This document shows, piece by piece, positions 7,737 through 42,784 of a DNA stretch of 64,000 bases. Within the stretch, counting starts at the first letter, position 1. Every line of letters starts with the position of its first letter. The DNA is taken from contig JBEKSS010000010.1 of NCBI GenBank assembly GCA_049516875.1, forward strand, positions 1-64,000, given 5' to 3'. The position numbers and the translations under genes are program-made. Below the pieces are notes generated by a model that did no database searches, was not told the DNA's origin, and was given only the letters and a program-made list of their open reading frames with translations. The DNA comes from Candidatus Bathyarchaeia archaeon (lineage in GTDB: Archaea > Thermoproteota > Bathyarchaeia > Bathyarchaeales > Bathycorpusculaceae).

Positions 7737-8231
7737 TCACAGAGCGCTCCCGACATCTTTTCTCAGAATGTAAGAGTTGATTCTTGCCTTTTTCTTTGTG
7801 AAACCGTACTTTCGGTACAGTTTAAGTGCAGGGGTGTTTACCTTGTTGACTGAGAGTTCGAGAATGCTCTTGTCGAGTTGCCTTGCCAAAGCAGCGGCAT
7901 GGTCCAACAAGTAGGTGGCGACACCTATCCTTCGGTAGAATGGAGAAATAGCCACGTTGCTGATGTAAAGTACTCGTGTTCTTTCTTCGAGCGCAAACAC
8001 TCCGACTATTTGCTGCTTAACAGTGACAAAGTACCTTCTCTGCCTGAAGAAATAGACTTCCGAGAACACGATATAAGGAATAACTGTGAACACAAACAGC
8101 GGATTGCTTTCAATCGAGAAACCTTCTCTATAGTCTCTTTTTCTGAAATAGAGAAAATTGAGCAAATTGAAAAGGAAATGTTGACGCCACGTCACAGGTT
8201 TAAGTTGAAAATATCGTTGGACAGTCAACAT
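7737..8231 (-). CDS. GNAT acetyltransferase
   Basis: YRRIGVA acetyl-CoA motif and N..A..LYRKYGF. Confidence 0.8.
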   Translation of the reverse strand: MLTVQRYFQLKPVTWRQHFLFNLLNFLYFRKRDYREGFSIESNPLFVFTVIPYIVFSEVYFFRQRRYFVTVKQQIVGVFALEERTRVLYISNVAISPFYRRIGVATYLLDHAAALARQLDKSILELSVNKVNTPALKLYRKYGFTKKKARINSYILRKDVGSAL

Positions 8232-8603
8232 TGCAACCTCATTTTTGGTTCTGGCTAAATGATGATGGCTTTTTTAATATATAACGCGCGCCTGGAACTC
8301 CTAATAGCTACCGCTAAGCCACAGACAACTACAAGTAATCGCTTGGCTGAATGTTCATCTTCTAGCAATTCTTGAACGTGTGTGCGCACCTGCCCTCCCC
8401 CGGGTTCAGTATATGAATCAAATATGATCAAAATATGCTCTAGGAAAAAGCCAAACACCTCAATGAACCTGCCTTCATGAATGAGTGCTTGCTTTAACCC
8501 TACAAACATTATGATTGATGGTTGTTGCACAGTTAGCGCTCGTTGATGAAGCTAAGGTTCAGAAAGCGCAATAAACGAAGGAAGATTGTGCCAAGAACAT
8601 AAT

Positions 8604-8726
8604 TGGTGGGGTCGCTGGGATTTGAACCCAGGATCGCCAACGCCCCAGGCTGGTATACTAAACCACTCAAGGTAACGGTAGACCAGTATACTATACTGTC
8701 GCCGTCACTAGCTATACGACGACCCC
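8604..8726 (-). tRNA. tRNA-Pro(GGG) with encoded CCA and a 44-nt D-loop insert (8666-8709), probably an intron
   Basis: Minus strand reads GGGGTCGTCGTATAGCT-[44 nt]-TGGTTTAGTATACCAGCCTGGGGCGTTGGCGATCCTGGGTTCAAATCCCAGCGACCCCACCA. A complete cloverleaf forms once the insert is removed, and the insert folds into a hairpin. Confidence 0.9.
8647..8665 (+). repeat. Left att core
   Basis: Identical to 15005-15023; lies in the tRNA D/anticodon arm. Confidence 0.88.
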
Positions 8727-9610
8727 AACCAGAAACACGATACCAAGAACAAATAGATAAAACAATCGCCAAAGCCACAATCGAAGGAAAAGCAAAAAAC
8801 ACAATCAAATCCTTCAAACACAGGCTAAGAGAACTAAGCAGATTCGCAGACCTGATGAACCCCGAAGACGTAAAACAAGCAATAGGATACTCAAAACTCT
8901 CAAACTCTAGCAAATGCTCATTCGCACTAGCTTATGAATGGTTCACCAGAGCCAACGGGCTACAATGGGAAAAACCACGCTTCAAATGGAACTTACCCAC
9001 TCCAATTATGCCAACCACCGACCAAGTAAACAAAATAATCTCAGCCACAACGCTAAGATTCGCTACCATATTCAAACTAATGGCAGAAATCGGAGTAGGA
9101 GGCGAAGAACTACACCAGACACACCGCAACCAATTCGAGACAACGCAAGGAATCATAAGCATAAAAGGACTCAAAGGACACGGTTCAGCCAACTACAAAC
9201 TCAAAAGTCAAACAGCCGAAATGCTACGAGAATACCTAGCCAAAAACCCACAAGACTACCCATTCCCAAGACCATATATAATGTCAACAATGTGGCGACG
9301 AGCGCGAGAAACAGCCTCAAAGAACCACAACGACCCAAGCCTCAAAACAATACCCATGAAGAACCTCAGAAACTACTCTGGTGCGCAATTTTACTACAAA
9401 TTCCCCGACCCAATCGGAGTAATGCGACACCTAAGACACAAAAGACTAGAAACAACCATGCACTACCTAAGAGCAATCGTACTCAACGGAGAAGAAGAAT
9501 ACACAGTCAAAACGGCAACCAACATCAAAGAAGCCACCGAACTCCTAGAACACGGATTCACATACGTACAGGAAATCGACGGCATCAAACTATACAGAAA
9601 ACGCAAATAA
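8648..9610 (+). CDS. int: Tyrosine recombinase, C-terminal fragment (IntC)
   Basis: KGLKGH, KNLRNY, LRHKRLETTMHY and a C-terminal KTATNIKEATELLEHGF tail. The frame runs antisense through the tRNA and has no convincing start of its own. Confidence 0.88.
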   Translation, partial: GWYTKPLKVTVDQYTILSPSLAIRRPQPETRYQEQIDKTIAKATIEGKAKNTIKSFKHRLRELSRFADLMNPEDVKQAIGYSKLSNSSKCSFALAYEWFTRANGLQWEKPRFKWNLPTPIMPTTDQVNKIISATTLRFATIFKLMAEIGVGGEELHQTHRNQFETTQGIISIKGLKGHGSANYKLKSQTAEMLREYLAKNPQDYPFPRPYIMSTMWRRARETASKNHNDPSLKTIPMKNLRNYSGAQFYYKFPDPIGVMRHLRHKRLETTMHYLRAIVLNGEEEYTVKTATNIKEATELLEHGFTYVQEIDGIKLYRKRK

Positions 9611-9651
9611 CCCCTCTTTTTCTTTTAACTCTTCATCGACCAATCTTCCAA

Positions 9652-10350
9652 ATGGAGTATTACATTATGGATTGGAGCGATTTCGATGAGAATTACACAC
9701 AGCTGAAAAATGTTTTGAGAGACCTCATAGGGAACTCTGAGAATGTAGACGAACACAACATTTACGAAGGTTACCTTGGCTATAGAGATGAAGTGAAAAT
9801 CATTGTTGAGAGAATTGAGGAAGAAACTCAAGTACACATGAAGATGTTCAGAGAAGTCTCAGGAATGATAGAAAAAGAAGAAGAACCAAACGGTTTGTTG
9901 GATGCTTTTCTTAATTATCATTCATTAATACGATTAGATGTAAAGTCGTTTTTCATTTTCACACGGATATTCATTGATACACTCGCAAGAATAGTAAAAT
10001 TACGCTTTGGTGAAAAAGGGAAAAATCTACCTTGGAGAATGAGAAAGCTATTGAAAAACGAAGAATTCTTGGCTCTTGACCCAGACTTTGCCGAAGAATT
10101 CAAAAGCAAAATGTCATGGATGACTGATTTCATAGAGACTCGTGATGAAATCGAACACTATCTCGGAAATCCACGATGGTACACCGTTACAGGAGATGGT
10201 AAGTTCGGATTTATCATTCAAGGCTCCAGCGACCGAAATACTCCATTTTTGGGAATAAACAAAGTGGATTCTATAGCTGACTTCATGGAAAAGATTCTGT
10301 CCAACTTGTCAGAAGTAATCCTGTTCATTCGTTGCAGATTTCCTTCATAG
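9652..10350 (+). CDS. Putative HEPN-domain protein
   Basis: Helical protein with RxxxxH motif (TRDEIEHY). ATG at 9652 or 9667. Confidence 0.6.
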   Translation: MEYYIMDWSDFDENYTQLKNVLRDLIGNSENVDEHNIYEGYLGYRDEVKIIVERIEEETQVHMKMFREVSGMIEKEEEPNGLLDAFLNYHSLIRLDVKSFFIFTRIFIDTLARIVKLRFGEKGKNLPWRMRKLLKNEEFLALDPDFAEEFKSKMSWMTDFIETRDEIEHYLGNPRWYTVTGDGKFGFIIQGSSDRNTPFLGINKVDSIADFMEKILSNLSEVILFIRCRFPS

Positions 10351-10447
10351 TCTTCTTTTTGCCGCGCACCAGCCAGAATTATGCTAACTTGTAGCGCGCG
10401 CTTAAAAAAAAGAAAAAAAATACCCGATATTGACTTTTGGGTTAGAC

Positions 10448-10456
10448 TTTTATATA
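10448..10456 (+). promoter_or_regulatory. TATA box for the 10495-11875 operon
   Basis: TTTTATATA about 40 nt before the ATG at 10495. Confidence 0.5.
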
Positions 10457-10494
10457 CAAACCCTCAAATTACTCCAACCAATAAGGGATTCTCA

Positions 10495-10785
10495 ATGAGC
10501 AAACAAGAAGACCCTTTACTGAAGAAGCTAGACCTTTTGGCTGAAAAGCTTAACGTCTTAACGACTGTAATACTGCTCAAAGAGCATACTAAGAAAATTC
10601 TTGAAGGGAAGAAGACTCAAAAAGAACAAATCCAGACTCTCAAAAAATGGAAATTGCCAAATGAAGTAATCGCACTCATAATAGACACGACCCCAGATGT
10701 AATAGGCGTTAGAGCAAGTGAAATGAAAGTCAAAAAGACTCGCAAAGAGAAACAACCCAAACCAGAACAGAAGGTTACTCCATGA
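10495..10785 (+). CDS. Small coiled-coil/HTH-like protein (paralog 1)
   Basis: KTQKEQIQTLKKWKLPNEVIALIIDTTPDVIGV; overlaps the next gene by ATGA. Confidence 0.7.
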   Translation: MSKQEDPLLKKLDLLAEKLNVLTTVILLKEHTKKILEGKKTQKEQIQTLKKWKLPNEVIALIIDTTPDVIGVRASEMKVKKTRKEKQPKPEQKVTP

Positions 10786-11075
10786 GCAAAGACCAGAAAG
10801 AACTTCTTAAAAGACTTGATTCACTAAACAAAAACATTGAAATTCTTACGAAAGTCATTGCCGTCAACGTTGGAAAGGAAATATTGTTTAAAGAGAAGAA
10901 ACAGAAAGACCAAATCGCATTTCTGTCTGAGTTGGGACTGCCACGCAACATCATTGCATCAATGGTTGTGACAACACCGCTAACTGTTAGCGTCACAGTA
11001 AGCCAAAAAAAACCCAAACAGAAGACCGCTCCAGAGAAAGCGAAAATCGATACGAAGACAGAGACTCCCAAATAG
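10782..11075 (+). CDS. Small coiled-coil/HTH-like protein (paralog 2)
   Basis: KKQKDQIAFLSELGLPRNIIASMVVTTPLTVSV, collinear with paralog 1. Confidence 0.7.
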   Translation: MSKDQKELLKRLDSLNKNIEILTKVIAVNVGKEILFKEKKQKDQIAFLSELGLPRNIIASMVVTTPLTVSVTVSQKKPKQKTAPEKAKIDTKTETPK

Positions 11076-11101
11076 GAAAAATCAGAGAAGTCTAGCGACA
11101 A

Positions 11102-11875
11102 TTGAACAGAATATTCAAAGAAATCTGCAAGAAGACACGGAAAACTGAGCCGAACATAAAAGATAGAACAATTTACAAGAGAATTGAGACGTTTCAGAGA
11201 AAACACGATATACTCACAACGACACTAGCACAAAACGCATATGCTTATGGTGCCATGGGCATCAACGTTCAAAAACTTGGGTTGAACGAGGAAGAAAAGG
11301 AAGAACTGCAAGAGTGGCTAGACAATAGAGCCAAACCATTTGCGCAAGAATTCAAACAAGAAAGAAAAGAAACTAAAATCCGTAAAATTCGCAAGAAAGT
11401 TGTTGATGAATTCAGTCTTCCATCTAATCTAGTAAATGATGCAAATAGAATGGCTGGCATCTACCAAGACTTGTATCTATTGGAGAATTTGGTCAGACAT
11501 GTGGTAATGACCATCTTGAGCAAAAAACATGGTAATGAGTGGTGGAAAAATCGTTCTGTTGTATCAAAGAAAATCGCTGATAAAGTCGAAGGTCGTAAGC
11601 AATTTGAGGGAGAAAATAGATGGGTTGCGAAAAGGGGTTCTCATGAGATTTTTTATACAGATTTTGCCGACCTTAGCAAAATCATTGCGGCAAATCCTAG
11701 AGAATTCAAAAAAGTCTTCGCAGACATGGAAATCGAGGCGGAACTAAGAAAACTGAAACCCTCAAGAAATATTATTGCCCATAACAACCTGCTACGCCCT
11801 AACGAAATCAAAAGAATACAACTAGGTCTCAACGAGTTGCAAGAACAGTTAAAGAATTATGCCGAGAAGAAGTAG
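11102..11875 (+). CDS. Swt1-like HEPN-domain protein
   Basis: LYLLENLVR...WW...YTDFADLSKII...SRNIIAHN (RxxxxH). Confidence 0.78.
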   Translation: MNRIFKEICKKTRKTEPNIKDRTIYKRIETFQRKHDILTTTLAQNAYAYGAMGINVQKLGLNEEEKEELQEWLDNRAKPFAQEFKQERKETKIRKIRKKVVDEFSLPSNLVNDANRMAGIYQDLYLLENLVRHVVMTILSKKHGNEWWKNRSVVSKKIADKVEGRKQFEGENRWVAKRGSHEIFYTDFADLSKIIAANPREFKKVFADMEIEAELRKLKPSRNIIAHNNLLRPNEIKRIQLGLNELQEQLKNYAEKK

Positions 11876-12253
11876 TAATTAGCGCGCGCCGCGCGAAGTC
11901 ATGCTTAACCATTACGCCGCGCTCGCATGATGCTCGCGCTCTAGCGCGCGCTAAGCTCGTGAGCCTCACGGCTCATTCGCACGTCACAAAATGCAACGTT
12001 CCATAACTCGATGAGCTAAAACTTAGCACAAGAAAAAATAGACAAACACACAAAATTAACCAAACACTTAAAACACACAACTTCAAACGCTCAATCTTAC
12101 ACAAACGCGCATCAATACCACAGAAACCAGCAACAACCCAATTACACGGCAAACAAACAACATCTCGCGCGCTTAGGATTTCTGTCTTTGAGGTTTTGCG
12201 GAAAAGTTATAGCTGAATCGAAGCAATCTTGGTGCGTTTGGGCTACCTTCCGT

Positions 12254-13087
12254 TCACGCTACTGTTTTTCCGAGTAGGTCTTTAGAAATTATGTGACCGT
12301 GACAATGGAAGACTCGGGCGAGGTATCTTTCTTCAAGCAAGTTCTTATCGTAGAGGCATAGCCCACAAACGTCAGAAACAAGTTGTCTGCCTAACGATTC
12401 ATCGTATTTCAATAACGCTTCACTTAATCCAGCATTGATGAAGTCAGTTACTTCACCAGCAACATGCACTCCCGTAAATCCAGCCTTCTTCTTCTCGTGA
12501 ATAAACATCTGCCCATTCATTGCGATTGTTTTGGCTTTGGCTCCTCCTTTTCTTAGATACCATTCATTAGCAGACATGATTGTAAATGCTTCCTTGCGTA
12601 GGCTGTCAAGGTCTATGCCATACTTTTGGATTTCTCGAATTTCCGAATCCAGTTTATCTTCGGAGACGAAATATACAGCCGCCTCACCCCTTGATAGTCC
12701 AGCTTTTAAGAACGGAAACGATATTTCGCGTTTGAAACCTTCATTGTCATACAAGGCTACAGCATGGGCCCCAATTGTCAGGCGTTCGGCATATCTCGAT
12801 GCTTCCTCTCCTCTTGAAGTCAGAAAGCGAAAATCATGAATCACATCAGCTAACAATTTTCCTCTATCCGTTAGGCGATATTTCTTTGTTGCAGGCTCAA
12901 GCTCAACGAATTTGCTCAGCGTTCTGAGATGATAACCAAATTTGCCATGATTACCATCACCACCAACCTTGTTCAACAGTTCCGTAAACGGCAAGTTCTC
13001 ATCGTGCAAACATTCTATGATTTTCCTATTCACAGGATGCGACATTGCCCTTTGAATTTGATAGTCCCAACTGTTGTTTCCATGCAT
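12254..13087 (-). CDS. Winged-HTH plus MEDS-domain sensor/regulator
   Basis: N-terminal SHPVNRKII...YHLRTL...YRLTDRG; C-terminal HAVALYD, FLKAGLSRGE, GLCLYD, HGHII typical of MEDS. Confidence 0.82.
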   Translation of the reverse strand: MHGNNSWDYQIQRAMSHPVNRKIIECLHDENLPFTELLNKVGGDGNHGKFGYHLRTLSKFVELEPATKKYRLTDRGKLLADVIHDFRFLTSRGEEASRYAERLTIGAHAVALYDNEGFKREISFPFLKAGLSRGEAAVYFVSEDKLDSEIREIQKYGIDLDSLRKEAFTIMSANEWYLRKGGAKAKTIAMNGQMFIHEKKKAGFTGVHVAGEVTDFINAGLSEALLKYDESLGRQLVSDVCGLCLYDKNLLEERYLARVFHCHGHIISKDLLGKTVA

Positions 13088-13570
13088 TCGCAGTCAATAC
13101 TAATTAGAACACATGCTAATTACTTATCCGTTTGGTGAAGAATGTTTCACCTATCGAGAAAGAGAAAGGCACGAAGACCTACGAAGAATACGGATGGCAT
13201 CATGTAGAATAGAAGACACTTCTATCAGTCCTTTTGAGCCAGTTTGACTTGTCTATTCATTAGAAGAAAACGGCCATGTGAAGACGGAATTCGGGAGAAA
13301 TCTCCCACACCTTAGCTTTTTGCACTATCGTTTGCAGTTGTATTCTTGTGCTACTCTTTCGACATAATGTTGATAGCTAGTTAGACAATGACTAGCTATT
13401 TCTTCCCTCTTTTTCTATCCATTCCCATACGTGACAAGGCCTACTCCATGGGAAAACCATAGAAACACACTTAATCTATTGCACACAAACGGTACTCATA
13501 ATACTGCAATCCGTGAATTAACAAGCTTTTTCGTTTGTTTAGCTTGAAATATTTAAGTCCGAAAAGTGAA

Positions 13571-13720
13571 TTATTTAAGCGCGCGAACCACGTTCAGTTC
13601 TTTTCGCAAGCGTTCCTGTTCCTTTTCGCTTTCTATGATTTCTTTGTTTTTAGCCTCTATCAATTCATGATAGTGCTGTTTCAATAGTACCTTCTGTGCG
13701 TCGTCCACTTCGATGCTCAA
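13571..13720 (-). CDS. 49-aa coiled-coil microprotein, not in the ORF track
   Basis: TTG start after GGATGTGAG; MSIEVDDAQKVLLKQHYHELIEAKNKEIIESEKEQERLRKELNVVRALK. Confidence 0.5.
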   Translation of the reverse strand: MSIEVDDAQKVLLKQHYHELIEAKNKEIIESEKEQERLRKELNVVRALK

Positions 13721-13902
13721 AATCTCACATCCGAGTAACTAACTGGATGTTGATCGATTCTTAAAAAGAATATGCAAAAGCGTACAACAGAAAAACAGAG
13801 AAAATCGACAAAAAGCATTTCATTAATGACAAGTACGTAATGGTAAGACCGAGACAAATCTTAAATGTGCAGAGCAACAGAAGACAAACTAGGGGTTCAA
13901 AA

Positions 13903-14463
13903 ATGAGTGAAACAAAAGTCGATGAAACAAAACCAAACGAAACGAAGCCAAAGAAGTTTGTAAGACGAAGCGTTGCCATAGGACTCGGAGTAGTAATCAC
14001 TATCGTTGCTATCGTAGTAATCTTAATAATCGGTGTTATTCCTACAATGAACAAATTATCAAAGAGCAATATGGCTTCAACTCTACTTAATGTTCAGATG
14101 CAACCTCTAAGTGAATTATACACACCTTCACATAACGTAACCACATGGATACCGCCTTACTATAATGCGACTACATGGGAATGGTATGGCGGCTATTACA
14201 AAGTTACGGGTTTTGTACCCGCACAAGTTGTCATTTTTGGAACCGCATGGAACATTGGAACTGAAACCGCTTATAATTGTCAAGTTCACGTAGTCGGCTA
14301 TTACGAGGGTGGAGTTGTTGCTTTAGATACTTATATCAACATTGGATTGGGAACTCAAAGCGTAATTTATGTTAATGGACAAATGCCAATAGATACAACA
14401 ATAAATTGTTCAGATGGGATTGTAAACTGGATAACAACACCAATTTGCACTAACACTCCATAA
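13903..14463 (+). CDS. Single-pass membrane-anchored hypothetical protein
   Basis: Basic N-terminus, one hydrophobic helix, beta-rich C-terminal domain. Likely start MSETK. Confidence 0.7.
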   Translation: MSETKVDETKPNETKPKKFVRRSVAIGLGVVITIVAIVVILIIGVIPTMNKLSKSNMASTLLNVQMQPLSELYTPSHNVTTWIPPYYNATTWEWYGGYYKVTGFVPAQVVIFGTAWNIGTETAYNCQVHVVGYYEGGVVALDTYINIGLGTQSVIYVNGQMPIDTTINCSDGIVNWITTPICTNTP

Positions 14464-14903
14464 TTCCACGCTTACCTCTTAGCGCGCGCGCTTTTTCTAG
14501 GACTCGCGGTAATAGTTTTCGAAGCTCGATGATTCAAAGTAAGAGTTTCGCTAATTCGGAAAAAGCCACACTAAATAACACTTTCAGTAATGTATTAGGT
14601 TTCAGTCAAGGGTAGCATAAACCAATACCGTCTTTAACAACATCCAGCGCGCACCACACTTAGAACTCAACACTAAGTGAAGACGACAACGCAGAACGGA
14701 TGAACCCGCTAGGGCATCCTTGATACATACACGATGTATTCAGCCACAAGCTCCAGCATGGAATAAGCAAAACAAAATCCTCGGAGACATAAGCCTTTCT
14801 CCTTCGGAGCCTTCCTTCAGGAAACGTGAAAAGGCATATTGTCTCCTCGTCCACAAAACGACGAAATTATGAAGTTCGATGATTAGAAATAGGAGGTGAA
14901 AAA

Positions 14904-15050
14904 ATGCAAAACCAAAACACAAAACAAAGCCTAAAACAAACAGCTATAACCGAAAGCAAGCAAGAAACAAGCATACAAGATAATAAGAAATTACTAAGAC
15001 GTAGAGGCTGGTATACTAAACCAAGCTATACGACGACCCCACATTACTAG
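14904..15050 (+). CDS. Integrase N-terminal fragment (IntN), 48 aa, not in the ORF track
   Basis: RBS AGGAGGTGA at 14891. MQNQNTKQ...LLRRRGWYTKP reads the att core in the same frame as GWYTKP in IntC. Confidence 0.82.
   Translation: MQNQNTKQSLKQTAITESKQETSIQDNKKLLRRRGWYTKPSYTTTPHY
15005..15040 (-). repeat. Right att: intron-less 5' half of tRNA-Pro
   Basis: Minus strand GGGGTCGTCGTATAGCTTGGTTTAGTATACCAGCCT, ending at the anticodon loop. Confidence 0.9.
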
Positions 15051-15320
15051 TTTACGACCATCTGACGAAGGCGAAATTATTACTACGCTAATCAAACTTA
15101 AAGGTTCTGGACTTGCGGAGAGTGCACTGAAATCATTTCTTGGCCTCTGTCTTTCCTAGCAAAGGATTGAAGTTTGGACAACCCGCTAGAATTAGCTGAC
15201 TTCATGGCTAACATGAAAGGTTCTAACAGTCACAGAGACTGTGCGCACGCTCCGCTCTATAGTCAAGACTAAGCAAACAGCAGTAATCAAAACCATAGAA
15301 GAGGCCACCGATGCATTGGC
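15025..15320 (+). pseudogene. Decayed, internally deleted IntC of an older related element
   Basis: AIRRPHITSLRPSDEGEIITTLIKLKGSGLAESALKSF, then a frameshift to FLAKD*SLDNPLELADFMANMKGSNSH, then IKTIEEATDAL. These segments match the N- and C-terminal parts of the IntC at 8648-9610. Confidence 0.7.
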
Positions 15321-15387
15321 GCGAGCAAAGTGAACCTCTTAATGGCAACACATGTTTGACGCAGAATGAGTCTGTTCAGCAGGCTCC

Positions 15388-17217
15388 TCAAACGGATGGT
15401 TTTTCCAGAATCAGGACAGATTCATACCGTATCATGCCTGTCTGACTTTTTTCAAGCTCTCTAATGATAGTCCTGTCCTCTTTGAAACCTAGCATCAAAG
15501 CCATTTCCTTCAAGAGTTCATCATTCTTGACAACTGCATAGTTTCCGTCAAGTTTGTAATGATTGTTGCCTATTATGATCACGCATTTGGAAGAGCGTTT
15601 GAGTACACGGTACATTTCCTTCAAGGCAACACACATATCCTTGAAGAATTTGTAGGTCCTCAGAGCTTCCTTCGTCCGTCCATACCTAATCATAGTGGAT
15701 ATCGTGTCTTTAGCATCTTGAGGCAGATTCGCATATTCGGGGCTATTGTCTCTTATTTCGTTCGGAAGAGATCGCGAGTAGACCTTGAACCGCGGGTTGC
15801 CAATCATGTTTGCTTCTAGCTGAGGAATGTCTGCCAGTTCTAGTAACGTAAGCTGTGGATAATCGTTCATGACATAGTCTAATGCCGTGCTATACGGAGG
15901 GGAGTTCACTATGGCATCGATGCTTTCGCTTTCAACCATTCTCATATCTCTTGTGTCGTCAGCATGAGTTGTAGATTTTCCTAATCTTATCCTCATTACA
16001 TCGTTTAGTTTGTCGAAGATATAGAGTCTCAAGTAAAGGTTCTTCAGTCTGTCTTGAAGCACGTCCAGAAACTTGCCGTTGCGTCTTCTCGCCAAATCTG
16101 ATATTGCTCCACTGAGCGCCAGTAGAAGGAAGTCGCGGATTTTCTCATTCTTCACTTTCTTAACGAGTTCATGCGCAAGGATAACGTGATCGACTGTTTT
16201 GGGTTCGCTGAAGAGAGACATGACTCTGGCTGGTATGCTGTGCTTTCTCCTTTCAAGGGTCTCCTTGTCGTAGTTTGAGGGAACAAGCAATGCGGGACTT
16301 GATGATTGAGTTTCATAGCGCATAAGATTGCTGCGAAGATCCTGCAAATAGCTGTCAATGCCTTTCTTCAATTCGTCCACAGCGATATTGAGTGAACCAC
16401 ATTTGACGTTGCACATTAGCGCGGAAAGAGGATTAATCTCAATTCCCGTGCTGTCAAGCCCCATCAAAGTAGCTTCAACCAGAAGAGTTCCACATCCCGC
16501 AAAATTGTCCATAACCTTTCCCGTCGGTTGAGGGAAAGCGTAATTTAGAAGGGCCCTGACCATCTTCGGATGAAATTTGCCTTTGTACGGGTGCATGTAG
16601 TGAGTCAAATATAATGATGGTTCCTCTCTGATTGTGAAATAATCTTCCAACCTCTTTCCTATTTGCATCGTTTCCGTCGCGGGGATTCTGTGGAGTTTTT
16701 CAGTCAAGAATGAGAAGAGAGATTCAACATTGTTTGAGGCTTCTTCCTCATTTCTACTGAGCTTGGAGATGTACTGGGATTTTTCAAGAAAGTACTGATT
16801 GGTGATAAATCTCAGCAAAACATAACCGTTGCTGCCGAAATACTCAACGTTCTTCCTTTCCACTCCCCCGGGAAGCATTCGTTGCAAAACAACCTGTGGA
16901 TTACTGGATTCAGTGACCGCGAAGAATTCCCTGGTGTAGGCCAAACGCATGACCAAGTTTGATACATCGCGTATTCCATCTGTTCTTGCGAGAAATCCCT
17001 GACATTCCCCGTACGGAAGCTCATGCGCGAAGAAATCTTGCACTCTCGCGTCGCCGCTTCTGAAATTGTTGAAAGGGGTAGTATCCAAAACGTCGGAGAA
17101 ATTCTTTACTGGACTGACATTCGCGAATAGACTGGTCAGTTCCAGCTGGGCGAACGTGGTCTCATGTTTTTCCTTTATGCTGTTAAACAGCTTGAAGTAC
17201 CAGTACACTTCCAGCAT
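15388..17217 (-). CDS. Amino (N4-C/N6-A) DNA methyltransferase with N-terminal extension
   Basis: HPYKGKFHP, DNFAGCGT (motif I) and NSPPY (motif IV). RBS GGAGGTG precedes the ATG at 17217. Confidence 0.88.
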   Translation of the reverse strand: MLEVYWYFKLFNSIKEKHETTFAQLELTSLFANVSPVKNFSDVLDTTPFNNFRSGDARVQDFFAHELPYGECQGFLARTDGIRDVSNLVMRLAYTREFFAVTESSNPQVVLQRMLPGGVERKNVEYFGSNGYVLLRFITNQYFLEKSQYISKLSRNEEEASNNVESLFSFLTEKLHRIPATETMQIGKRLEDYFTIREEPSLYLTHYMHPYKGKFHPKMVRALLNYAFPQPTGKVMDNFAGCGTLLVEATLMGLDSTGIEINPLSALMCNVKCGSLNIAVDELKKGIDSYLQDLRSNLMRYETQSSSPALLVPSNYDKETLERRKHSIPARVMSLFSEPKTVDHVILAHELVKKVKNEKIRDFLLLALSGAISDLARRRNGKFLDVLQDRLKNLYLRLYIFDKLNDVMRIRLGKSTTHADDTRDMRMVESESIDAIVNSPPYSTALDYVMNDYPQLTLLELADIPQLEANMIGNPRFKVYSRSLPNEIRDNSPEYANLPQDAKDTISTMIRYGRTKEALRTYKFFKDMCVALKEMYRVLKRSSKCVIIIGNNHYKLDGNYAVVKNDELLKEMALMLGFKEDRTIIRELEKSQTGMIRYESVLILEKPSV

Positions 17218-42619: not shown

Positions 42620-42713
42620 GGGCCCGTAGCTCAGCTAGGTAGAGCGCCAGGCTCATAAGCGCACGAAGCGTTCAGAAACCTGTTGATCCCCGGTTCAAAT
42701 CCGGGCGGGCCCA
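42620..42713 (+). tRNA. tRNA with CAU anticodon, most likely tRNA-Ile2, with a 20-nt canonical 37/38 intron (42658-42677)
   Basis: GGGCCCGTAGCTCAGCTAGGTAGAGCGCCAGGCTCATA-[intron]-ACCTGTTGATCCCCGGTTCAAATCCGGGCGGGCCCA. The GGGCCC acceptor stem is Ile-like. Confidence 0.9.
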
Positions 42714-42784
42714 CATCTCCAAGAATCAGAAGAACGGTTATGTTCACATTGCGCACTTTTCTGATAGAGCCCCATAACGAAACG

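What the first reader, a model, noticed from the sequence alone, without database searches (positions are those of the whole stretch)
8604..15050. Split-integrase element whose att site carries a tRNA intron that doubles as integrase coding sequence
Seen: the element sits in tRNA-Pro(GGG) and duplicates the 5' half of the tRNA. The complete tRNA (8604-8726) has a 44-nt hairpin insert in the D-loop that the other copy (15005-15040) lacks. On the opposite strand an RBS-led ORF at 14904 reads ...RRR-GWYTKP through the right att, and IntC reads GWYTKP-LKVTVDQYTILSPSL-AIRRP through the left att. Crossover in the 19-bp core gives a 6358-bp circle encoding a continuous 354-aa integrase that includes the insert. 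Because 44 is not a multiple of 3, crossover in the second 18-bp block would give an intron-less, frameshifted integrase and leave the intron in the host tRNA. Known: SSV1-type integrases are partitioned on integration, and archaeal tRNA introns occur at non-canonical sites. Inference: the same 44 bp act as spliced intron, protein code and frame check, and the element may be a vector for tRNA intron gain.
Basis: partly seen in the sequence, partly recalled or inferred. Interest (0 to 1): 0.9.

Follow-up and report, generated by a model that had tools for sequence, protein, structure and literature searches.

The report
Integrase element that brings a tRNA intron
A 6.4-kb mobile element in a peat archaeon has replaced the front end of the cell's only proline tRNA(GGG) gene with its own copy, and that copy contains a 44-base insert shaped like an archaeal tRNA intron which also forms part of the element's integrase gene.

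Summary
A 6358-bp element with a split integrase sits in the only tRNA-Pro(GGG) gene of a Bathyarchaeia genome. The rebuilt tRNA has a 44-nt D-loop insert that the displaced 5' half lacks. Crossover in the 19-bp core gives one 354-aa integrase ORF that reads through the insert.

The intron reading is supported by comparison, not by RNA data. In 25 distinct related pre-tRNAs the insert sits in a bulge-helix-bulge-like motif, and cutting there restores a normal tRNA. The inner helix covaries: 88-100% paired, 29 G·U pairs and no A·C, so the structure lies on the tRNA strand. A TATA-like box lies about 30-38 nt upstream, inside the integrase gene. Genomes where the integrase has decayed keep the insert in their only tRNA-Pro(GGG) gene.

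This window's copy has the weakest central helix of the set (2 of 4 pairs).

The "frame check" idea does not generalise: 17 of 25 inserts have lengths divisible by three.

The idea of an element acting as an intron vector is already published (Sugahara 2012). What is new is the overlap with a split-integrase ORF and the size of the family.

Earlier notes of this scan touch similar themes on other DNA.

The parts
8604..8726 (-). Chimeric tRNA-Pro(GGG) gene at the left junction (123 nt; 79 nt without the insert, CCA encoded)
   Evidence: Read. After in-silico removal of the insert, ARAGORN calls tRNA-Pro(ggg). It is the only tRNA-Pro(GGG) in the genome.
8710..8726 (-). Exon 1 (tRNA nt 1-17), supplied by the element; part of the 18-nt second repeat 8710-8727
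   Evidence: family D11. 100% identical between element pairs whose integrase bodies are 57-89% identical.
8666..8709 (-). 44-nt insert, the putative BHB-type intron. Bulge 1 = 8711, 8710 | 8709; inner helix 8702-8708 with 8672-8678 (GUGACGG/CCGUUAC); central helix 8712-8715 (AUAG) with 8668-8671 (CUUG), 2 of 4 pairs; bulge 2 = 8667, 8666 | 8665
   Evidence: H 2/4, inner helix 7 bp; 7 of 2000 shuffled inserts reach the score. Family covariation.
8647..8665 (.). Left copy of the 19-bp core (tRNA nt 17a-33), where the crossover took place
   Evidence: family D9. Identity to the right copy ends exactly at the insert on one side and at the anticodon on the other.
8754..8762 (-). TATA-like box (TTTTATCTA on the tRNA strand), starting 36 nt upstream of tRNA nt 1, inside the integrase ORF on the opposite strand
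   Evidence: a TATA-like pentamer starts at -29..-38 in 24 of 27 distinct loci, against 40 of 855 control windows.
8648..9610 (+). IntC: C-terminal 320 codons of the integrase. It reads through core, insert and exon 1 (GWYTKP-LKVTVDQYTILSPSL-AIRRP) and then the catalytic body
   Evidence: Pfam PF00589, 32.2 bits against a cut-off of 27.1. 353 homologues. Family found in 250 of 401 genomes of the order.
14904..15023 (+). IntN: first 34 codons plus the core, with a Shine-Dalgarno-like GGAGGTG. In the integrated state the ORF runs on to 15050
   Evidence: Homologous IntN ORFs at the right junctions of G366 and G073 and a remnant in G348.
15005..15040 (-). Displaced 5' half of the tRNA (nt 1-33, no insert) at the right junction; core copy 15005-15023, second block 15024-15041
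8666..15023 (.). The integrated element (6358 bp, counted from one core copy). Cargo: 9667-10350, 10381-10785, 10782-11075, 11102-11875 (HEPN_Swt1), 12254-13087 minus strand (HTH + MEDS), 13840-14463
   Evidence: No capsid or replication family was found.
15004..15135 (+). Fossil N-terminus of an earlier integrase of the insert-less type, next to the displaced 5' half
   Evidence: tblastn: P0100 residues 29-74, 48% identity, E 1.2e-6.

Best explanation
A small integrative element of Bathyarchaeia encodes a tyrosine integrase whose attP lies inside its own gene. It recombined with the host tRNA-Pro(GGG) gene within a 19-bp core (tRNA nt 17a-33). That cut the integrase gene into IntN (right end) and IntC (left end) and pushed the host's original 5' half and promoter to the far end of the element.

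The element repairs the tRNA gene with its own parts. All of them are written on the strand opposite to the integrase ORF: a TATA-like promoter box, a perfect copy of tRNA nt 1-17, and a 44-nt insert. On the tRNA transcript the insert forms a relaxed bulge-helix-bulge motif of the HBh' type: two 3-nt bulges, a central 4-nt helix made with D-arm nt 12-15, and a 7-bp inner helix.

The host's two-subunit splicing endonuclease and RtcB ligase would then cut out the insert and rejoin the exons, giving the native tRNA. So the same 44 bp are integrase codons on one strand and intron on the other.

Shown: the anatomy, the open reading frames, the family-wide motif and its covariation, and the presence of the enzymes. 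Inferred: transcription from the internal box, and splicing itself.
For: (1) Anatomy and frames.

(2) Eight of 12 relatives' loci carry an insert-less tRNA-Pro(GGG), so the insert comes with the element.

(3) All 25 analysable distinct insert-bearing pre-tRNAs have a BHB-like motif at a cut position that restores the native tRNA. Shuffled inserts reach the observed score in 0-7 of 2000 trials for 21 of the 25. ARAGORN calls tRNA-Pro(ggg) on 24 of 25 spliced products; the 25th keeps a second, anticodon-loop intron.

(4) Inner-helix positions 1-6 are paired in 88-100% of the 25, with 4-5 pair types per position, against 4-72% in shifted controls. Of 150 cells, 29 are G·U and none is A·C, so the structure is selected on the tRNA-sense RNA and not on the DNA or the integrase mRNA.

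(5) A second class (L010, L031, L093, L094) has a strict hBHBh' motif at another site: outer helix 5 bp, central helix CUAG/CUAG, inner helix up to 14 bp.

(6) Exon 1 is 100% identical in 7 of 7 element pairs. The insert is 87-100% identical in three pairs whose integrase bodies are 57-89% identical.

(7) The tRNA-like blocks are read in different frames in different integrases, so their conservation is at the nucleotide level.

(8) TATA-like box: 24 of 27 loci against 40 of 855 control windows.

(9) The host has two EndA paralogues. One is most similar to crenarchaeal catalytic subunits. RtcB is present.

(10) Where the integrase is truncated or gone (G348, G337, G228, G333, G334), the insert-bearing gene is still intact and is the only match to the tRNA-Pro(GGG) anticodon arm.
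Against: There is no RNA evidence of any kind.

In this window's copy the central helix has only 2 standard pairs of 4 (A·G and U·U mismatches). With its close kin G366 it is the weakest of the 25.

Class I motifs have no outer helix, so they depend on an endonuclease that accepts relaxed motifs. The endonuclease type here is inferred only from paralogue count and best PDB matches.

The minimum-free-energy fold of the precursor contains the inner helix but not the full motif, and its z-score is only -1.99.

The central helix rests on a self-complementary CUAG that a duplication could produce without selection.

The promoter box coincides with conserved integrase residues (I-I/D-N/K-T), so its conservation may be due to the protein. 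The 25 sequences are related, which inflates the counts.

Four of the 25 score weakly against shuffles: L002 26, L023 53, L021 148 and L014 190 of 2000.
Confidence: 0.7

Rival explanations
1. The insert is not spliced in this genome. Integration inactivated tRNA-Pro(GGG), the cell reads CCU/CCC with tRNA-Pro(UGG)/(CGG), and the insert is a decaying relic of an ancestral intron or merely integrase linker sequence.
For: The central helix is only 2 of 4 pairs here. ARAGORN and Rfam do not call the gene. tRNA-Pro(CGG) and (TGG) genes exist. The element looks recent and intact.
Against: The same CUUG variant persists in three species-level genomes whose integrases are 80-83% identical (G000, G366, G400) and arose separately in G073. 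Between G000 and G366, exon 1 is 100% and the insert 95% identical while the integrase body is 78-86% identical. All 8 element-free relatives examined keep a tRNA-Pro(GGG) gene. Genomes with a decayed element keep the insert-bearing gene as their only copy.
Confidence: 0.18
2. The hairpin serves recombination or regulation rather than splicing. It could be an integrase binding site or cruciform in attP, or part of an antisense RNA that controls integrase translation. Its BHB look would then be a by-product of a duplicated palindromic CTAG.
For: A conserved loop motif (GGTATCTTGG and variants) resembles the tRNA D-stem/anticodon-stem junction. In the insert-less element L032 it lies upstream of the tRNA instead. 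The insert's 3' end resembles the end of exon 1. Any transcript from the internal box is antisense to the integrase 5' region.
Against: 29 G·U and no A·C among 150 helix cells places the selected structure on the tRNA-sense RNA, not on duplex DNA. The bulges are exactly 3 nt on both sides in all 25. The predicted cut restores the native D-loop exactly. The motif survives after the integrase has decayed.
Confidence: 0.1
3. The duplication is an assembly or binning artefact.
For: The genome is a metagenome-assembled draft of 20 contigs. Short contigs of the public runs break inside the tRNA T-arm at 8632-8636.
Against: Contigs from runs of four studies cover the right junction, and one contig covers 8636-12213 with no difference. 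G366 has the same element with a matching right junction about 6.3 kb away, and G073 has a 3.4-kb version. 20 independent public assemblies carry insert-bearing genes.
Confidence: 0.02

Closest known systems
SSV1-type ('type I', partitioning) archaeal integrases
   Same: attP lies inside the integrase ORF. Integration into a tRNA gene splits the gene into N- and C-terminal parts that overlap the tRNA repeat at the two borders. It is a tyrosine recombinase (Pfam PF00589). Description of the type is taken from passages of PMC3293823 and PMC8371274.
   Different: The target is the 5' half of the tRNA (nt 1-33), not the 3' half, so the element must also bring a promoter. attP carries an insert that the host site lacks. 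No sequence match to a solved SSV integrase: the best PDB hit is an archaeal XerC-like recombinase, 4a8e, at E 2e-4.
Sugahara et al. 2012 model of tRNA intron gain in Caldiarchaeum subterraneum (PMC3293823; abstract, sections 5 and 7 read)
   Same: An intron-containing attP recombines with an intron-free attB. The rebuilt tRNA gains a D-arm intron (24/25 there) and a 5' tRNA fragment is left upstream. The mobile element is proposed as an intron vector. The model is restated in the review PMC8371274 (passage).
   Different: That case is one locus with a pNOB8-type recombinase that does not overlap the tRNA. Here the intron lies inside the integrase ORF. There are 25 or more variants with covariation, two or three intron positions, at least three target tRNAs, and a graded series from intact element to element-free intron.
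Non-canonical archaeal tRNA introns with relaxed BHB (HBh') motifs, cut by two-subunit endonucleases (class named from my own knowledge; PMC2724299 and PMC12397907 seen only as search listing and abstract)
   Same: 3-nt bulges, a 4-bp central helix, an inner helix, and a position outside 37/38. The host has two EndA paralogues.
   Different: These introns are carried by a mobile element and double as protein code. The central helix of this window's copy is imperfect. Splicing has not been shown.
Elements that break a tRNA gene and bring a replacement
   Same: Integration would disable a host tRNA gene, and the element compensates.
   Different: Here no whole spare gene is carried. Only the 5' exon, intron and promoter are supplied, and they fuse with the host's 3' part.

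Membership tests
SSV-type (partitioning) integrase element | Tyrosine recombinase catalytic domain | tested here: met
   PF00589, 32.2 bits (cut-off 27.1), residues 124-275 of IntC. Weak PDB match to XerC-like 4a8e, E 2e-4.
SSV-type (partitioning) integrase element | attP inside the integrase ORF, so that integration splits it into IntN and IntC at the two borders | tested here: met
   Both ORFs read the 19-bp core in the same frame. The joined frame is open for 354 codons. IntN homologues lie at the right junctions of G366 and G073. One apparently unsplit homologue, P0118, is 354 aa.
SSV-type (partitioning) integrase element | Direct repeats made of a tRNA gene segment | tested here: met
   19-nt and 18-nt repeats equal tRNA nt 17a-33 and nt -1 to 17.
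SSV-type (partitioning) integrase element | Sequence kinship to fusellovirus integrases | tested here: not met
   The Pfam scan listed only PF00589 at E <= 0.01. No SSV integrase appears among PDB hits at E <= 1. No relative in viral contigs.
Archaeal BHB tRNA intron | Two 3-nt bulges on opposite strands separated by a 4-bp helix | tested here: inconclusive
   This copy: bulges CU|A and AG|U in the right geometry, but the central helix AUAG/CUUG has 2 of 4 pairs. Among the 25 sequences the helix has 4 of 4 pairs in 10, 3 of 4 in 13, and 2 of 4 in 2.
Archaeal BHB tRNA intron | Inner helix h' next to the 5' bulge | tested here: met
   GUGACGG/CCGUUAC, 7 bp. Covaries across the family.
Archaeal BHB tRNA intron | Outer helix h (strict hBHBh') | tested here: not met
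   One pair only in class I, so it is at best the relaxed HBh' form. It is met (5 bp) in the four class II sequences.
Archaeal BHB tRNA intron | Removal at the bulges yields a canonical tRNA | tested here: met
   The product equals the 5' half at the right junction joined to the host 3' part. ARAGORN calls tRNA-Pro(ggg) in 24 of 25.
Archaeal BHB tRNA intron | Host encodes splicing endonuclease and RtcB ligase | tested here: met
   Two PF01974 + PF02778 proteins of 185 and 183 aa. RtcB at 598.7 bits.
Archaeal BHB tRNA intron | Cleavage and ligation observed in RNA | not testable with these tools
   No RNA run was listed for this DNA.
Element-mediated tRNA intron gain (Sugahara 2012) | attP with intron, attB without; 5' tRNA fragment displaced | tested here: met
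   The right-junction half lacks the insert. 8 of 12 relatives' loci are insert-less.
Element-mediated tRNA intron gain (Sugahara 2012) | Intron persists in the host gene after loss of the element | tested here: met
   Integrase reduced to 277 aa or less, or to nothing beyond the tRNA overlap, in L082, L084, L079, L080, L090, L097 and L081, with the insert intact. It is the sole tRNA-Pro(GGG) gene in the 5 genomes checked. The direction of the series is inferred.

The most novel reading that the evidence does not exclude
Split-integrase elements of this family are a main source of non-canonical D-arm introns, and of the promoters and 5' halves, of tRNA genes in Bathyarchaeia. Each integration overwrites nt 1-33 of a tRNA gene with element DNA in which promoter, exon, intron and integrase codons overlap. 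When the element decays, the intron and promoter stay behind as host features. The introns themselves would arise from duplicated tRNA segments created by serial integrations, with the palindromic CUAG of the D-arm seeding the central BHB helix.
Probability: 0.35. Interest if true: 0.85.

Novelty: new variant of a known kind. Interest (0 to 1): 0.7.

Why it matters
Where the scattered, non-canonical introns of archaeal tRNA genes come from is a long-standing question. The proposal that mobile elements deliver them rested on one locus in one population.

This family offers dozens of natural variants. They include intact elements, shrinking remnants and element-free genes, two or three intron positions, and at least three target tRNAs. 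The model can therefore be tested directly by tRNA sequencing, by endonuclease assays and by phylogeny.

It is also a compact case of overlapping information. One stretch of DNA is recombination site, integrase code and antisense promoter on one reading, and tRNA exon plus intron on the other.

It also warns annotators. Standard tRNA finders miss the only tRNA-Pro(GGG) gene of these genomes.

Tried and rejected
Rfam at gathering score and ARAGORN, with and without intron mode, do not call the gene. They were therefore useless for classing the insert.

The metagenome scan with P0118 did not return its own contig. No intact attP was inspected at the DNA level.

Viral contigs held no relative.

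Sequencing runs: no RNA holder was listed. The four runs laid were contigs only. No joint corresponding to an empty site or to a circle junction was listed, and one joint was not shown. Contigs break in the T-arm, so this says nothing about excision. In run X5 the flanks (about 3% diverged) have depth near 220 and the element near 9. I read that only as a related strain without this element.

An alternative cut two bases further in (central helix 3 of 4, outer helix 3) was rejected because it leaves four extra D-loop bases.

The 'frame check' was rejected as a general function.

A loose BHB scan with ARAGORN as filter gives many false candidates. Only the CTAG/CTAG solutions at nt 17 in L113, L117 and L125 were kept; L109, L111, L128 and L102 stay unclear, and L101 gave none.

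The catalytic Tyr/His/Lys of the 185-aa EndA, and the missing His in the 183-aa one, were read by eye against a recalled motif. They were not aligned, and I do not lean on them.

Supplementary files of papers were closed and not opened. Table S1 of PMC3293823 and the data of Krupovic 2019 (known only through a review passage) may bear on novelty. Literature searches.

Full report
**What is there.** The window belongs to a 2.43-Mb, 20-contig genome, 97% complete. Homologue names and record titles place it in Bathyarchaeia (P0044, all 20 titles).

On the minus strand, 8726..8604 is a tRNA-Pro with anticodon GGG and an encoded CCA. It is interrupted by 44 nt (8666-8709) between D-loop nt 17 and 17a. 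15040..15005 repeats nt 1-33 without the insert.

The repeats are exact: 19 nt (8647-8665 / 15005-15023) and 18 nt (8710-8727 / 15024-15041). On the plus strand a 48-codon ORF with a GGAGGTG leader (14904) reads ...RRRGWYTKP into the right repeat. The 8603-9610 ORF reads GWYTKP, then the insert, then AIRRP and a tyrosine-recombinase body (PF00589).

Joined at the core, the frame is open for 354 codons and the circle is 6358 bp. Joined at the second block, it stops after 56 codons.

**Who brought the insert.** Because the crossover lay in the core, everything to the right of 8665 at the left junction is element DNA: the insert, tRNA nt 1-17 and whatever drives the gene. The host's former 5' half and upstream region now lie at 15005 onward.

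Among the 12 best loci of 41 relatives, 8 have an uninterrupted tRNA-Pro(GGG) and 4 (including this one) have an insert at or near the same place.

Just right of the displaced half lies the fossil N-terminus of an older integrase of an insert-less type. The site has therefore been used at least twice.

**A family.** A pattern search found insert-bearing genes in 15 of 401 genomes of the order (G021's longer form escapes that pattern). It also found 20 stretches among 185,579 species' genomes, all Bathyarchaeia. Metagenome loci added more.

This gave 27 distinct sequences, of which 25 could be analysed. L015 is cut by a contig end, and L024 has a T-arm variant that my expression missed.

The integrase family itself occurs in 250 of 401 genomes at E <= 1e-20. 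Nearly all database homologues start inside the antisense of a tRNA, so they are integrated copies. One, P0118 (354 aa), looks unsplit.

**Is the insert an intron?** I used the standard BHB geometry, recalled from the literature: cleavage after the second base of each 3-nt bulge, with the bulges separated by 4 bp. I asked whether a cut that restores the native tRNA sits in such a motif.

It does in all 25.

- In class I (21 sequences) the central helix pairs D-arm nt 12-15 with four bases near the insert's 3' end. Both bulges are exactly 3 nt. An inner helix starts at insert base 2. There is no outer helix, which makes this the relaxed HBh' form.
- In class II (L010, L031, L093, L094) the element's 5' block is longer. 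The motif lies near nt 25-27 and is a strict hBHBh': outer helix 5 bp, central helix CUAG/CUAG, inner helix up to 14 bp.
- L033 uses a third site.

Shuffled inserts reach the observed score in 0-7 of 2000 trials for 21 of the 25 sequences. The weaker cases are L002 (26), L023 (53), L021 (148) and L014 (190).

Inner-helix positions 1-6 pair in 88-100% of sequences, with 4-5 pair types each. Shifted controls give 4-72%. Of 150 cells, 29 are G·U and none is A·C. That places the selected structure on the tRNA-sense RNA, not on DNA or the integrase message.

ARAGORN recognises tRNA-Pro(ggg) in 24 of 25 spliced products. The exception, L036, also has an ordinary anticodon-loop intron.

The genome has two EndA paralogues. 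One is closest to crenarchaeal catalytic subunits and the other to M. kandleri and M. jannaschii enzymes. RtcB is present.

**Further signs of function.**

- The two tRNA-like blocks are translated in different frames in different integrases (GWYTKP or AGILNQ; AIRRP or LDDDP). Their conservation is therefore at the nucleotide level.
- Exon 1 is identical in 7 of 7 element pairs. In three pairs the insert is 87-100% identical while the integrase body is 57-89% identical. In one pair (L016/L021) the insert is less conserved, and its helix changes are compensatory.
- A TATA-like pentamer starts 29-38 nt upstream of tRNA nt 1 in 24 of 27 loci, against 40 of 855 control windows. It overlaps conserved integrase residues, so this is suggestive only.

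**Decay series.**

- In G348 the element has shrunk to about 820 bp between a right-junction half and the insert-bearing gene.
- G337 keeps 82 integrase residues.
- L079 keeps fewer than 100.
- L080, G228 and G333 keep only a few dozen.
- G334 keeps nothing beyond the tRNA overlap.

In G333, G334, G228, G337 and G348 the insert-bearing gene is the only match to the tRNA-Pro(GGG) anticodon arm. The simplest reading is that the intron, and often the element's promoter, stay behind when the element dies. The direction of this series is inferred.

**Beyond tRNA-Pro.** I classed by eye the 30 best integrase loci, as printed. 18 adjoin a tRNA with an insert, 10 adjoin an uninterrupted tRNA, and 2 show no tRNA.

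Six of the 18 are at tRNA-Arg(GCG) or tRNA-Gly(GCC). Three of these (L113, L117, L125) show the same CUAG/CUAG motif at nt 17.

Insert-less elements also exist at tRNA-Pro (L032). The intron is therefore not needed by the integrase.

**Weak points for this window.** The central helix here is AUAG/CUUG, only two standard pairs. This copy and G366 are the weakest of the set. The variant is nevertheless shared by G000, G366 and G400, whose integrases are 80-83% identical, and it recurs in G073.

The free-energy fold shows the inner helix but not the full motif. No RNA data exist. Contigs of public runs neither show nor exclude excision.

I put 0.7 on splicing in this genome and would put more on the family as a whole.

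**What is not supported.** The 'frame check' is not supported: 17 of 25 inserts are multiples of three.

The intron-vector idea is not new. Sugahara et al. 2012 proposed it for Caldiarchaeum tRNA-Thr with a non-overlapping recombinase, and a 2021 review repeats it.

I found no paper that describes an intron inside a split-integrase ORF or this Bathyarchaeia family (searches, over the held library only).

**Verdict.** This is a real and unusually informative variant of two known things at once: a partitioning integrase and a mobile-element-borne BHB intron.

Noticed in passing
window 15004-15135 (+): Fossil N-terminus of an older, insert-less-type integrase directly beside the displaced tRNA 5' half. 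The host's 'native' promoter at this site is itself integrase-derived, so the site has been used serially.
   Followed up: partly
L004, L006, L009, L012, L014, L015 (upstream 60 nt of tRNA-Pro): Upstream regions of tRNA-Pro(GGG) in element-free relatives contain degenerate copies of the tRNA's first ~15 nt and stretches that translate like integrase N- or C-termini. The 5' half and promoter of this gene may have been replaced many times.
   Followed up: no
inserts of L002, L008, L010, L014 and others; L032: A loop motif (GGTATCTTGG / GGGTATACTGG) is conserved whatever the reading frame and resembles the tRNA D-stem/anticodon-stem junction. In the insert-less element L032 it lies upstream of the tRNA 5' end. 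It may be a second integrase binding site.
   Followed up: no
L036: A tRNA-Pro(GGG) with two interruptions: an ordinary anticodon-loop intron in the host-derived part and the element-borne D-loop insert.
   Followed up: no
L113, L117, L109, L111, L128 (tRNA-Arg GCG); L125 (tRNA-Gly GCC): Related integrases at other tRNA genes also bring D-arm inserts. Three of them have the same CUAG/CUAG motif at nt 17.
   Followed up: partly
whole genome G000: ARAGORN in intron mode finds only 38 tRNA genes, and several isoacceptors (for example Phe and Tyr) are missing in a 97%-complete genome. More non-canonical introns are likely.
   Followed up: no
window 42620-42714 (+): A tRNA called with an odd four-base anticodon by default ARAGORN and as intron-bearing tRNA-Leu(CAG) in intron mode. 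Rfam tRNA gives 57.5 bits.
   Followed up: no
window 9667-14463: Element cargo: a Swt1-like HEPN protein (11102-11875), an HTH + MEDS regulator (12254-13087, minus strand) and four ORFs without a Pfam family. No capsid or replication gene was recognised.
   Followed up: partly
L101 (G400:C1): A close relative of this element (integrase 80% identical) sits at a tRNA-Pro whose anticodon stem has one extra base. This is either a damaged gene or a sequencing error.
   Followed up: no
window 7800-8631 and 15387-15800 in run X5: The flanks are about 25 times deeper than the element and about 3% diverged. An abundant sister strain in that sample seems to lack this element.
   Followed up: no
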